A DNA stretch of 64,000 nt from Octopus sinensis. Taxonomy: Eukaryota. The stretch spans positions 90,458,001-90,522,000 of the forward strand of contig NC_043000.1 of the NCBI RefSeq assembly GCF_006345805.1. Direction: 5' to 3'. Positions 15,467-49,192 of the stretch are shown piece by piece. Under the pieces are notes generated by a model that did not search any database, had not been told where the DNA came from, and saw only the letters and a list, made by a program, of their open reading frames with translations. Every line of letters begins with the position of its first letter. Within the stretch, counting starts at the first letter, position 1. The position numbers were made by a program, and so were the translations under genes.

Positions 15467-16721
15467 GTTCTATATTTAAGAGACCTATAGTAAATCGTAG
15501 AGGTTCAGCATGTCATCCACTGAGCCGCTTCCTTGTGGATATAATCAGTCCATTAGCAGGAAAGTCAACATCGAAATGTTGACCTTCTGTGTAGAAACTA
15601 CCTACTTCAGTATGGACACTGATATATATCGACAAGAGGAGGGTTTAGCTATGGGTTCGCCATTATCACCAGTAATAGCCAATATATACATGGAATACTT
15701 TGAAAATTTGGCTTTAGGATCAACACCACTAAAACCAACACTATGAATACGATATGTTGATGACACCTTTATACTCTGGCCCCACCAGGAAGATGTCCAA
15801 GTGCTGTTAGATCATGTGAACTCAATAAAGCCATCCATACAGTTCACAATGGAAAAAAGAAAAAGACAATCAGCTGGCATTCCTAGACGTATTAATAACA
15901 CGCAACAAGTATGGATTCAGGACATTCGTATACCGCAAGCCGATCTTTACTGGAAGATACCTCAACTTCAATTCCCACCATCCATACAGTGTAAAAAGAG
16001 GGATTGCTCAGTGCCTAAGAAACACCGTGCAAAGAATATAAGTAGCGATCGTGATACACACCACAAAGAAATGATCAAGCTTAATAACGATCTGTTAAGT
16101 AATAACTACCCCCAAACTATACTATCCGCTCCAATTAAGAAGAAGAGAGAGGATGAGGCCAATAAAATTTCCACAGTCTGTCTACCCTGTGTGAAAGGCC
16201 TCTCCGAAAAGATACAAAAGATATGCGGCCCATATGACATCAGGATAGTATTCAAGAGTAATACAACACTTCCCAAATGTCTCCTTCGATTAAAACCACC
16301 AATAGAAGAGAATATGACCAAAGACTGCGTGTACTCCATCGCATGCAACTGTGTTAGGTTATAGAAAGGCGAAACATGCCGCCCCCTCAAAATAAGGGTA
16401 GACGAACTTCGCAAATCTGTGACATGAGGATATATTGATAAATCGTGTATAGCTGATCATATATGGAAAAATGGAGACCACGTCCCCCTGTGGGATGAAG
16501 TTAAAATAATAGAGAACACCACTGGAAAATAAGAAAACTAAAAGAAGCAGCACATATGCTAGGACACAACAACCTCTTAAGCAGACCGAGTGCAGATATG
16601 AGCAGCATATGGGAACCGGTATTAAGGAAGGATAGGAAAATATTAGATTTATAAGCCCTAAAATTCACTCATAATTGTTCACGGGCATATGGCGTAGAGC
16701 GCGGGGTACTAACCCCAAGAT
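15467..16721 (+). mobile_element. Penelope-like retroelement (RT + GIY-YIG endonuclease), 5'-truncated and decayed
   Basis: RPIVNRRGS, TYFS..YRQEEGLAMGSPLSPVIANIYMEYFE, RYVDDTF, IQFTMEK, AFLDV, VYRKP..TGRYLNFNSHHP, and GIY-YIG-like VYSIACNC...KGETCRPLKIRV. Confidence 0.92.
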
Positions 16722-43655: not shown

Positions 43656-44430
43656 TTTACTTTGGCACACGACATAAGATTTTGGTGGAAGGGGCTATTC
43701 GATTATATTGACTCCAGTGTTCAAGTGATAATTATTTTACCCATCCCGAAAAGATGAAAGATAAAGACGAACTTGGCAAATAAAGTATAAGCATCACCCT
43801 GAGGCGGCTGTAACTGAGCGAGAAAATGTAACGATTTTTTCTACATAACTTTATTTGCTTTTGCAAATGAACAATCTGGTGCGTTTAGCTTAATGGCCTT
43901 TCAATGTATTTAGTGAATTTCTTTGCTCTAGGTTTCAGGAAGGCACTCAACAGGAAATGGAAACAAAATTGAAAAAAATTTTCATTATAATAATGATGGT
44001 GGTGATGATGATGATGATAATGATTTCTTACATAACAGAAGGTATCAAATTTTGGGGAGCCACTTGACTACTTTGACCTCTGCATTTAAATTGTCTTTAT
44101 GTTATCAAGTCGGGAAGAATGAAATGCAAAAGTCGACTACGGTGGGATATCAGAACATAAGAGTTGTAGCTTAAGCCAAGCATTTTGTCTGACGCTTTAA
44201 CGATTCTTCCAATCCACAGGCTTTTGCTAATCTAAATAATCCTTTCTACTATAGGCATGTTGTCTGAAATTTTGTGAGAGGACGGCTAGTTGATTACTAC
44301 ATCGACCCTAGTTCTCGACTGTTACTTATTTTATCGACCCTAAGAGGATGAAAGGAAAAGTCGACCTCGGCGGAACCCAAACTCAGAACGTAAAGGCGGC
44401 GTGTTAACGTGTCTGCCTGCTTGCCGCCTA
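43655..44430 (-). mobile_element. Three diverged SINE-A copies
   Basis: Core GATGAAAG..AAAGTCGACCTCGGCGGAA..AACTCAGAAC. Confidence 0.7.
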
Positions 44431-44823
44431 TTTGCTGATCTAAACAATGATAAGGACGATGACTTCCCACTGTCAGCTCGAACATTGTCATCTACAGTAG
44501 CATCAAGGAAGACGCTACGCGGTCACTCTACACCTAAAAATAACAACCAAATCTCTCTCAAATAATGCCTTTAACAGAAGAAATACTAAAAATGTGACTC
44601 TATTCATGATGTGTTTTCGAGTACTCCGAAAACGTAATTTTTGATATGTAAAACGATAAAGTCACGCCTGGAAGGCCTTTGATCACAATTTTGTTTGATT
44701 ATGGTCCCCTTGGGGGTTAAACAACAACATCAACATTGTTCTATATTTAAGTGATGAGAAATTATGTGCATTATTTACATTATTTACATTCGACGGATAT
44801 TTGTCCTCATCTTTTTTGTTGTT

Positions 44824-44869
44824 ACCACAACGTTTCGGCTGATATACCCTCCAGCCTTCTTCAGGTGTC
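44824..44869 (-). ncRNA. Minimal type-I hammerhead ribozyme motif (family 1)
   Basis: GACAC-CUGAAGA-A-GGCUG-10nt-CAGCC-GAAA-CG-UU-GUGGU; one mismatch in stem I. Confidence 0.7.
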
Positions 44870-45158
44870 TTGGGGAAATTTCGGACCTGGATTCTCATTC
44901 CTAGGGTATTTTTCGATATAATAATAATAATAATAATAATAATTATTATTATTGTTATTATTATTATTGTTATTATTATTATTGTTATTATTATTATTGT
45001 TGAGGCCACTGCTTGGCATCGTCCTCGGAATCTTGGGCTTAGTAGACCGCACTCTTAACCCAAAGATTCCGATTTCGATTTCAAACAACAACAACAACAA
45101 CAACAACAATATCGAAAAATACCTTAGGAATGAGAACCCAGGTTCGAAATTTCCCCAG

Positions 45159-45204
45159 GACACCTGAAGAAGGCTGGAGGGTATATCAGCCGAAACGTTG
45201 TGTT
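45159..45204 (+). ncRNA. Minimal type-I hammerhead ribozyme motif (family 1)
   Basis: GACAC-CUGAAGA-A-GGCUG-GAGGGUAUAU-CAGCC-GAAA-CG-UU-GUGUU: canonical CUGANGA/GAAA/UH core with paired stems I and II. Confidence 0.8.
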
Positions 45205-46439
45205 AACAAGATGAGGGCAAATAACCGTCGAATGTAAATAATGTAAATAATGAACACCAACATCATAATCATTTCTAACAATTACCGAAACTCCATCCAA
45301 TTTTGAGACAAAGGTGCAATCGACCACAATACTTGGTCATTACCGAACCCTTAAGGATGAAATTTAAAGTTGACTTCTAGTTGGATCTAAACTCAGAACT
45401 AAAGAGATTTAACAAAGTACCACAAGTCCGACACTTTAACAATTTTACAATCTTGAATACAATAGTAATATTAACAATTTTCCTACAGGTACAAGGTCAA
45501 AAATTATACGCAAAGAGAAAAGGTCGATCATATTGATCCCGGTATTTGTGTGGTAGTTTATTTTATTGACCAAATAAGGACGAAATGCGAAGATGAACCC
45601 TATGGGTTTCGAACTCAGAACACGTTGTTCAGACTAGTGCTCTATCAATTGTATCATGTACTACTCTTAATATGATGGTAATAAAAAATCTTAGCCGTCA
45701 CTCGCAAGAGCGTAAGTCTTAGTATAGTAACTTGTACCACTTTTGCGCTAATTGTTTTAGATATCTTTGTAGTTGAGGGCAGGTATAGACACCCTCTTAA
45801 TCATTTCATTCTTGACTCAAAGGGACACGAGTATATTATAGCTGGAGGAAGATTGAAAGCTATATCAGCACGTAATTATTTTCAGCTGAGTAAACAAGGG
45901 TAACACGAAATGAAGAGCCTTGTTCAAGGACACAAAGTGCAATCCGGTCCTAGAATTGAATCTATGACCTTGCGATCACGAGCTCAACTGCTTAATCTCT
46001 ACACCACGCACCTTCACATACGAGTATGACGGTATTAAGAAAAATAATAATTATTATCATAACCAACACAACCTTCCTCTCCATAATAACAACAATAATA
46101 ACGCTTAATGCAAATAGAAATTTATTTATTTATTTATTTGTATTTTCTATTCACTACTGCACTCTGCGTCTTGGTCGGAGTATTCATCGAATTTTCGAGA
46201 TCGCTGATTTACACAGAGGCTGTGAACTACATCCGTATAGACGGAACTTCTTTTTTTACGACAAACCCCCAACCATCCTTGCCTCTCTCCATAAAAAACA
46301 AAACCAAAAACATCAACAACTATAAATTAACAAAAAAACTCCTTAAACATTTATATACACCAAATAGCAAAACAAAAAAAAACTCTGCCTAAACCAAATG
46401 TGATGTTATGGCGGTATGTGTGAAGGACAGCGAGATGTT

Positions 46440-47479: not shown

Positions 47480-48240
47480 TTCTTTCTACTATAAACACAA
47501 GGTCTGAAATGTTTTGGTAGGTGAGGGGGGGTTCAATTACATCGACCCCAGTGCATAACTGGTAGTTATTTCTTCGACCCCGAAAAGATGAAAGGTAAAG
47601 TTGACCGCGGCGGAATTTGAACTCAAAACATAAAGATTAACGAAATGCCGCTAAGCATTTCGCCCGGTGTGCTAACGATTCTGCCTGCTCACCGCCTTAT
47701 AAACAAGCAGTAATGATATAATAGGTCTGGTAGGGGCCATGACGCGCCACCACCACCACGAAGAAGAAGAAGAAGCAATAATACTATGACATAGGTGGCG
47801 GGCTGGCAGAATCGTTGGCACACCGTGCAAAATACTTAGCAGCATTTCGTCTGTCTTTACGTTCTGCGTTCAAATTCCGCCGAGGTCGACATTGCCTTTC
47901 AACCTTCTCGGATTCGCTAGAACCATTGAACCATTGAACTCTGTGGATCGATGTAATCGATTAATTTACCACCTTTTAAAAATTGCTTGCCTTGTGCCAA
48001 AATTTGAAACTATTATTATTATTAAGGTGGTGAGCTGGCAGAATCGTTAGCACACCGGGTAAAATGCATAGCGACATTTCGCCCGTGTTTATGTTCTGAG
48101 TTCAGATTTCTCCGAGGTCGACTTTGCCTTTCATTTTTTTCGGGATCATTAAAATAAGTACCAGTTGAGCACTGGGAATCGGTATAATCGACTTACACCC
48201 TCCCCAGAACTTGTTGGCCTTGTGCCAAAATTTGAAACGA
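47480..48240. mobile_element. SINE-A cluster: one minus copy (47480-47698) head-to-head with two tandem plus copies (47793-48010, 48024-48240)
   Basis: GGTGG(C/T)G(G/A)GCTGGCAGAATCGTT heads and TTGTGCCAAAATTTGAAAC tails. Confidence 0.88.
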
Positions 48241-49078: not shown

Positions 49079-49192
49079 TTCCACTTATTTCTTATTTTTA
49101 TTTTCCTAAAGTTTTCGTTGCGTCAAGACTATTGAAAAGGTTGCAAGACGCAACGAAAACTTTAGGAAAATAAAAATAAGAAATAAGTGGAA
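49079..49192. repeat. Perfect 46-bp inverted repeat with 22-nt spacer
   Basis: 49079-49124 is the exact reverse complement of 49147-49192. Confidence 0.95.
49129..49165 (+). ncRNA. Hammerhead-like motif with U3:A8 core covariation (family 3)
   Basis: CUA-UUGAAAA-G-GUUGC-AAGAC-GCAAC-GAAA-AC-UU-UAG. Confidence 0.55.

What the first reader, a model, noticed from the sequence alone, without database searches (positions are those of the whole stretch)
44738..45252. Penelope-linked module: tRNA-like Pol III head + microsatellite + hammerhead ribozyme, present as a head-to-head palindrome
Seen: each arm reads outward from ~45050 as a tRNA-like segment (B-box relics GATTTCGATTTC and GAGGACGATGCC, implying GAGTTCGATTCC), then (AAC/AAT)n, then a canonical-core hammerhead (CUGAAGA..GGCUG/CAGCC..GAAA-CG-UU, stem I GACAC/GUGUU), then a tail, which on the minus arm runs on to CTTAAATATAGAAC. 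Known: Penelope-like elements carry minimal type-I hammerheads in their pLTRs and often leave inverted termini, and Schistosoma Sm-alpha repeats combine a Pol III promoter with a hammerhead. Inference: this ~330-nt unit could be a self-promoting, self-cleaving non-autonomous element (SINE/retrozyme hybrid) mobilised by the local Penelope family.
Basis: partly seen in the sequence, partly recalled or inferred. Interest (0 to 1): 0.85.

Follow-up and report, generated by a model that had tools for sequence, protein, structure and literature searches.

The report
Penelope retroelement with a tRNA promoter
This palindrome is a broken, head-to-head copy of the end repeat of a protein-coding Penelope jumping gene; that repeat contains a tRNA-derived segment that likely served as an RNA polymerase III promoter, possibly for the whole gene, which would be an unusual way for a self-mobilising element to be transcribed.

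Summary
The palindrome, tRNA-like segment, microsatellite and minimal hammerhead are real, but this is not an independent SINE or retrozyme. It is the pseudo-LTR (pLTR) of an autonomous Penelope/Poseidon-type element of about 2.7 kb with thousands of copies. The order is: ORF stop, 29 nt, tRNA-Arg(ACG)-derived head with A/B boxes, (AAT)n, ATG. The hammerhead and tail are the first ~55 codons of the ORF. Inversion and one-sided tail are ordinary Penelope features (59 of 93 insertions inverted; 38 of 42 pairs long/short). The unusual part is the built-in tRNA head. 5' ends pile up at its start (41 of 93 and 32 of 89 insertions, about 3 expected). The sense strand has no fixed TTTT run over 2.7 kb, whereas 64 of 65 related ORFs and a second in-genome family have them. 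Best reading: Pol III transcripts starting at the head were the templates, possibly including the full ORF. This is inferred: RNA-seq was uninformative, no separate SINE lineage was found, and cut-site ends did not replicate. This locus itself has lost the A box and is a dead copy.

The parts
44738..45060 (-). Left arm: 5'-truncated pLTR copy with the long 3' end (tail included)
   Evidence: blastn to natural copy L038, 83% and 92%
45001..45060 (-). tRNA-Arg(ACG)-derived head, positions 17-76; A box lost; B box mutated (45026..45015)
44918..45000 (-). (AAT/AAC)n microsatellite, switching to the opposite orientation at about 44943
44896..44898 (-). ORF start codon of the Penelope protein; the frame is open to the end of the arm (53 codons)
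   Evidence: same N-terminus 43% identical to P0001 in copy L232
44824..44869 (-). Minimal type-I hammerhead, stem I with one mismatch; cut predicted after 44829
44738..44770 (-). About 33-nt Penelope 'tail', present on this arm only
   Evidence: long/short asymmetry in 38 of 42 pairs
45056..45252 (+). Right arm: more truncated pLTR copy with the short 3' end (may run to 45256)
   Evidence: 81% including deletions
45056..45083 (+). Head fragment from about position 36, with mutated B box 45071-45082; shares a 5-nt microhomology (TAACC) with the left arm at the junction
   Evidence: sequence
45084..45109 (+). (AAC)n microsatellite
45130..45132 (+). ORF start codon; a 7-nt deletion after the hammerhead shifts the frame
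45159..45204 (+). Minimal type-I hammerhead (ORF nt 30-75), palindromic ACGU in place of stem III; cut predicted 3' of 45199
15574..16721 (+). Second copy of the same family in the window: 5'-truncated, broken RT-endonuclease ORF ending at stop 16652-16654, then the spacer and the tRNA head from 16683 (partly deleted)
   Evidence: 91% to L057 over 1085 nt

Best explanation
[quoted passage not shown] Steps. (1, shown) The element reads: ORF stop, 29-nt spacer, tRNA head, linker, (AAT)n, ~20 nt, ATG, hammerhead in codons 10-25, and two preferred 3' ends at about ORF nt 120-140 and 157-165. (2, inferred) Pol III starts 7 to 0 nt before the head and, meeting no TTTT, reads on into the ORF. (3, inferred from the anole element PAc) The protein binds the start of the ORF in the RNA, cuts AT-rich DNA on both strands and starts reverse transcription internally at the two sites. 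Starting in the first repeat gives the ~330-nt 'SINE-like' copy; starting in the downstream repeat gives ORF-bearing copies. (4, inferred) Two cDNAs, one from each start site, or a cDNA and its fold-back, join head to head through short homologies, often a small hairpin at the head's 5' end. This gives a palindrome with one long and one short arm. (5, inferred) The hammerhead is a dimer-type or protein-assisted ribozyme that is not needed to make these copies. The family looks inactive now (median 94% identity to the column majority).
For: Identity as pLTR: 30 of 30 loci from an ORF-end query continue into the head (the query included the first ~20 nt of the head, so this set is biased). Unbiased: 10 of 30 loci from an RT-protein query run through the stop into the head, 3 end at or before the stop, and 17 show no ORF end in the stretch. 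L191 is a full-length copy with both repeats. RVT_1 hit, E 1.6e-8. Copy L232 is open for 140 codons from the ATG through hammerhead and tail, 43% identical to the N-terminus of P0001. Penelope signatures: 59 of 93 insertions inverted; 38 of 42 two-armed insertions have one long and one short end, as PMC11167929 and PMC8557442 describe. Template start: 5' ends within -10..+8 of the head in 41 of 93 insertions (41 of the 56 that reach it; 3.1 expected) and in 32 of 89 of a second sample (32 of 46; 2.8 expected; at least 3 loci shared between samples). Of the 41, 29 lie at -8 to +1, beyond the 3' arm of the hairpin where a stalled RT would stop. The 4 of 30 ORF-start copies whose 5' repeat reaches the head all stop or fold back there. 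In 7 matches among 136 head starts the head is joined to internal ORF sequence; 3 of these are joins from ORF nt ~360-470 to position -6/-7, as expected from template jumps off an RNA 5' end. Terminator absence: 40 T4+ runs in 84 kb of ORF copies against 175 expected, none at a shared site (at most 4 of about 40 copies); 0 in the majority columns over 2,719 positions. Only 1 of 65 related ORFs has none (15 of 80 loci dropped as under 1.2 kb), and 5 of 5 copies of a second Penelope-like family in this genome have 4-7 at lower T content. Between stop and hammerhead, 18 of 19 relatives have T4 runs and 0 of 19 an A/B box (19 of 48 loci with an ORF end gave a hammerhead).
Against: There is no direct RNA evidence: three unstranded RNA runs show depth that follows copy number and no starts at the head or ends at the cut. 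A hairpin sits exactly at the pile-up, and 30 of 83 head starts are fold-backs, so structure contributes. The T4 deficit is one family: codon shuffles expect only about 4 runs in the ORF (P about 0.02, my sum). G4 runs are absent too, though that is common in relatives (23 of 65), and the one T4-free relative, L298, has no tRNA head. Eleven of 93 insertions run on into the ORF, and L215 joins an ORF end to an ORF start, so read-through templates also existed. How an uncapped Pol III RNA would be translated is unexplained, and hammerhead cleavage would remove the start codon. The A/B-box pattern found only 2 of 4 own copies used as positive controls.
Confidence: 0.68

Rival explanations
1. An ordinary Pol II-transcribed Penelope element that carries a passively inherited tRNA-derived insertion in its repeat. 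The 5' pile-up comes from the hairpin at the head (RT stall, cDNA snap-back or annealing) or from a Pol II start that happens to lie there.
For: Hairpin at -13..+10; many fold-back junctions; the known Penelope promoter is internal and LINE-like with Inr/DPE (PMC2377424, passages); a capped RNA solves translation; the RNA lay shows nothing specific.
Against: Most ends lie past the hairpin's 3' arm, often at -2 or +1 with no palindromic extension. It does not explain the loss of TTTT in ORF and repeat, nor intact A and B boxes while the tRNA's acceptor and T stems have decayed.
Confidence: 0.22
2. One reading: the ~330-nt unit became an independent non-autonomous SINE/retrozyme, with solo copies acting as masters and mobilised in trans by the Penelope protein.
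For: Short copies outnumber ORF-linked ones (45 against 11 among the 56 reaching the head). A solo copy starting at the head keeps its promoter, has no terminator and holds both RT start sites. Bipartite copies joining the ORF's first 360-620 nt to a pLTR exist.
Against: Of the variant columns tested between 33 ORF-linked and 80 short arms, only two differ nominally (p 0.005 and 0.023, uncorrected), both at CpG sites; the non-CpG polymorphisms are shared. No tandem monomers. In PAc the template needs ORF sequence to +172, beyond the RT start sites (PMC11167929), which solo copies would lack. Some solo-master activity cannot be excluded.
Confidence: 0.1

Closest known systems
Penelope/Poseidon clade Penelope-like elements (PAc of Anolis; Penelope of D. 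virilis)
   Same: Single RT plus C-terminal endonuclease ORF, pLTRs, inverted 5'-truncated copies, 30-40-nt one-sided tail, minimal hammerhead overlapping the ORF start, two internal RT start sites (PMC11167929, PMC8557442, PMC4209133).
   Different: The repeat holds a tRNA-derived A/B-box head in place of the T-rich stretch seen in 18 of 19 relatives; the sense strand lacks TTTT; no sign of a 5' intron, as the frame is open from the ATG.
Schistosoma Sm-alpha / Sj-alpha SINE-like repeats
   Same: Pol III-type promoter followed by a type-I hammerhead (PMC6765202, passages).
   Different: Those are non-coding, often tandem, and are released by ribozyme cleavage. Here the unit is part of a coding element, solo or inverted, with no cut-site ends. 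It shows the kind of parent from which such repeats could arise (inference).
TRIMp3 elements (Helenus, Ajax, Cassandra)
   Same: A small-RNA-derived Pol III promoter captured inside a terminal repeat, with boxes kept and cloverleaf lost (PMC10886601).
   Different: Those are non-autonomous true-LTR elements under 1 kb with PBS, PPT and TSDs; this is a Penelope-like element with its own ORF.
Non-LTR (animal) retrozymes
   Same: Type-I hammerhead related to Penelope pLTRs (bioRxiv 10.64898/2026.07.22.740005).
   Different: Defined by tandem repeats with a hammerhead in each unit; not seen here. That text has no occurrence of tRNA, Pol III or promoter.
RTE-1_DAn and relatives
   Same: Autonomous LINEs noted in one sentence to hold a tRNA-like sequence (PMC5786205, passage).
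   Different: A different class; position and function of that sequence were not given in what I saw. It is a partial precedent that lowers the novelty.

Membership tests
Penelope-like element, Penelope/Poseidon type | Penelope-type reverse transcriptase in a single ORF | tested here: met
   RVT_1 E 1.6e-8; 111 homologues, best 53%, most with the same three Pfam domains
Penelope-like element, Penelope/Poseidon type | C-terminal GIY-YIG endonuclease | tested here: inconclusive
   Motifs seen by eye in L048 (the motif assignment is recalled); Pfam gave no hit for it; 4 of 111 homologues list PF01541
Penelope-like element, Penelope/Poseidon type | Direct or inverted pLTRs and 5' truncation | tested here: met
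   L191; 59 of 93 inverted
Penelope-like element, Penelope/Poseidon type | 30-40-nt tail on one end | tested here: met
   38 of 42 pairs long/short
Penelope-like element, Penelope/Poseidon type | Minimal type-I hammerhead in the pLTR | tested here: met
Penelope-like element, Penelope/Poseidon type | Clade placement by RT phylogeny | not tested
   No tree with named reference elements. The Cys-rich linker seen in the second family is absent here; the Poseidon and Neptune labels are recalled.
tRNA-derived SINE (SINE2) | tRNA-derived head with A and B boxes | tested here: met
   46 of 73 to own tRNA-Arg(ACG); boxes in majority columns; lost at this locus
tRNA-derived SINE (SINE2) | Independent non-autonomous lineage, separate from the partner element | tested here: not met
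   The unit is the partner's own repeat; no diagnostic non-CpG variants in 33 versus 80 arms (small sample)
tRNA-derived SINE (SINE2) | Transcription by Pol III | tested here: inconclusive
   Indirect support; RNA lay uninformative
Non-LTR retrozyme / Sm-alpha type | Head-to-tail tandem monomers, each with a hammerhead | tested here: not met
   0 of 24 loci with a detected core have a second same-strand core
Non-LTR retrozyme / Sm-alpha type | Self-cleavage and circular RNA | not testable with these tools
   Proxy only: 3 of 109 arms began at the cut site in one set, 0 of 115 in the position-ordered set
TRIMp3 (Helenus) | Non-coding element under 1 kb with true LTRs, PBS and PPT | tested here: not met
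   The element codes for its own RT

The most novel reading that the evidence does not exclude
An autonomous, protein-coding retrotransposon that swapped its Pol II promoter for a captured tRNA promoter and purged every Pol III terminator from a 2.7-kb unit, so that Pol III made the full-length RNA used as template and perhaps as uncapped mRNA. It would be a living intermediate between Penelope elements and Pol III/hammerhead SINE-like repeats.
Probability: 0.4. Interest if true: 0.87.

Novelty: new variant of a known kind. Interest (0 to 1): 0.68.

Why it matters
The usual division is that autonomous non-LTR elements use Pol II and SINEs use Pol III (stated in PMC10886601 and PMC5786205). A coding Penelope element with a tRNA promoter and no TTTT would break that division and make two questions testable: whether Pol III can supply a long translated RNA in an animal, and how Pol III/hammerhead repeats such as Sm-alpha arise from Penelope repeats. 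It also explains how an element makes mostly short 'SINE-like' copies without a separate SINE: internal RT initiation in the first repeat. For annotation, thousands of apparent tRNA-SINEs in this genome are pieces of one Penelope family.

Tried and rejected
Rfam and ARAGORN: no hammerhead or tRNA call; the miRNA, CRISPR and intron hits at E 0.4-10 are chance. Folding single arms: z -0.8 to -1.4, not significant by itself. Phe codon bias (TTT 0.33) as a sign of T-run avoidance: rejected, because the control family shows the same (11/25). In-vivo hammerhead cleavage from copy 5' ends: 3 of 109 in a mixed set, 0 of 115 in the position-ordered set, so not supported. Loop orientation against long/short arm in fold-backs: too few to tell. 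A progenitor SINE with the same head and another body: none among 367 hits in 1.45 Mb of held sequence, which is enriched for this family. tRNA heads in relatives: none after the ORF in 19 loci with a hammerhead; the one tRNA hit among 12 loci scanned (L309) lies about 490 nt before the ORF match and was not followed up. Sequencing runs: no RNA holder listed. The lay of three RNA runs of organism B (about 6% of each read, unstranded) and one contig set is uninformative on promoter use. Earlier scan findings: three look-ups, nothing. PMC5785218 is not held.

Full report
Observation. The window lies in a 2.72-Gb genome. I take the host to be an octopus from the recalled look of its abundant SINEs; no call tested this. 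The inverted arms, B-box relics, microsatellites, hammerhead and one-sided tail are at the stated places. The arms are unequal: the minus arm starts at head position 17 and the plus arm at about 36, and they meet at a 5-nt microhomology. Neither keeps the A box. Rfam and ARAGORN call nothing here. The hammerhead is supported by covariation with 11 related elements: 8 of 9 pairs change on both sides and 90.5% of cells pair.

The unit is a terminal repeat. Exact 29-33-nt patterns from the head, hammerhead and post-hammerhead part match 1,022, 2,593 and 3,032 places; with copies about 6% from the column majority the true number is probably in the tens of thousands (rough inference). Two of the first 30 loci had a reading frame ending 29 nt before the head. 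A query at that junction gave 30 of 30 loci with the same order (biased, as the query held the head's start). An RT-protein query gave 10 of 30 loci running through the stop into the head. L191 is a degenerate full-length copy of about 2.7 kb with both repeats, and the window holds another broken copy at 15574-16721. The ORF starts about 20 nt after the microsatellite. Copy L232 is open for 140 codons through hammerhead and tail and matches the N-terminus of an intact relative, P0001, at 43%. This parallels PAc, whose ORF starts within the hammerhead and whose RT starts internally at two sites that define the tail (PMC11167929).

The palindrome is ordinary. Among 93 insertions taken in chromosome order, 59 carry an inverted piece, and 38 of 42 two-armed ones have one long and one short 3' end, as this locus does. 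Inverted truncated copies and a 30-40-nt tail are listed as typical of the group (PMC8557442).

The head is the unusual part. It is colinear with the genome's own tRNA-Arg(ACG), 46 of 73 with no gaps; against 42 other distinct tRNA genes of a few types from this genome the best score was 41, against 43 for Arg(ACG) with the same head copy. The A and B boxes are intact in the majority columns while the acceptor and T stems are not. Of 30 head matches in chromosome order, 26 continue into the hammerhead part and the rest show the same linker. None of 19 relatives with a hammerhead has such boxes, and 18 of them have TTTT runs in that stretch.

Evidence that the head was the start of the template. 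5' ends fall within -10..+8 in 41 of the 56 insertions that reach the head, and in 32 of 46 in a second sample chosen 3' of the hammerhead; about 3 were expected in each. Eleven and 13 run on into the ORF. Most ends lie at -8 to +1, past the hairpin arm that would stall an RT. Junctions are fold-backs (30), joins to inverted pieces (17), joins to flank or other sequence (24) or ORF-linked (12), of 83. All 4 of 30 ORF-start copies that reach the head stop or fold back there; one other (L215) joins an ORF end to an ORF start. Three head starts at -6/-7 are joined to the early ORF, like template jumps.

Terminators. The sense strand has no shared TTTT site in 87 ORF segments or in 2,719 majority columns. 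Related ORFs average 3.1 per kb at matched T content, and 1 of 65 has none. A second Penelope-like family in the same genome has 4-7 per ORF in 5 of 5 copies, as shuffles predict. The effect is modest for a single family: about 4 expected from codon shuffles. G4 runs are absent as well, but so they are in 23 of 65 relatives.

Results against. Three RNA runs are unstranded, follow copy number and show no starts or ends at head or cut site; this fits host read-through of an old family and neither supports nor excludes past Pol III use. Short and ORF-linked arms share their non-CpG variants, so no separate SINE lineage is evident. A hint of 5' ends at the ribozyme cut (3 of 109) did not replicate (0 of 115), in line with PAc, where uncut RNA is the main template. 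Translation of an uncapped RNA is unexplained; protein may have come from Pol II read-through while Pol III supplied templates.

Literature. Ten searches showed no paper, by listing or in the passages I read, on a Penelope element with a tRNA-derived promoter. What I saw: PMC11167929, parts 1-2 of 4; PMC4209133, part 1 of 4; PMC10886601, part 1 of 6 and passages; bioRxiv 10.64898/2026.07.22.740005, part 1 of 5 and a term search, its supplements not seen; PMC13282606, passages and a supplement search; passages only of PMC8557442, PMC6765202, PMC2377424, PMC5786205, PMC4758252, PMC8967140 and PMC3531059. Ohshima and Okada 1994, Ferbeyre 1998 and Lunse 2017 were seen only as citations. Repbase and Dfam could not be searched, so the family may already be catalogued. 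PMC5786205 mentions a tRNA-like sequence in the LINE RTE-1_DAn, a partial precedent.

Verdict. The locus is a dead fragment with a routine Penelope shape. The family behind it is a new variant: a coding Penelope element with a tRNA-type promoter built into its repeat. That it is a pLTR is near certain (about 0.97); that Pol III supplied most templates is likely (0.68); that Pol III made the full-length RNA is open (0.4). Interest 0.68.

Noticed in passing
L440-L444 (e.g. G000:C12:27289261-27294159): A second, young Penelope-like family with a Cys-rich linker: open frames of 603-784 aa, copies 93-98% alike, L443 with identical 471-nt terminal repeats. Downstream of the L440 ORF is a hammerhead-like motif with a UUGAAAA core, like the U3-A8 variant of PMC4209133.
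   Followed up: partly
G000:C2:3121910-3162208: Tandem array of tRNA-Arg(ACG) genes, 95 of the 100 listed matches, mostly at about 206-nt spacing.
   Followed up: partly
L233, L235, L239, L242, L243, L246, L247: Bipartite copies in which the first ~360-620 nt of the element are joined directly to a terminal repeat; template jumps or internally deleted derivatives.
   Followed up: partly
window 44720-44732 and 45253-45265: 13-nt near-repeat (12 of 13 identical) flanking the palindrome; a possible target-site duplication in an (AAC)n-like tract, but the right boundary is ambiguous.
   Followed up: no
window 49079-49192: Perfect 46-nt inverted repeat with a 22-nt spacer, MITE-like.
   Followed up: no
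window 43690-43777, 44284-44429, 47524-47697, 47779-48154: Dispersed copies of an abundant short repeat family, 60-82% alike, some in inverted pairs; recalled as a CORE-type SINE.
   Followed up: no
L224, L225, L226/L248: One insertion present nearly identically on C1 and two unplaced contigs, probably redundant assembly; such duplicates slightly inflate counts.
   Followed up: no
L298: The only related ORF without TTTT (1,893 nt, 48% identity); its repeat is T-rich and has no tRNA head.
   Followed up: partly
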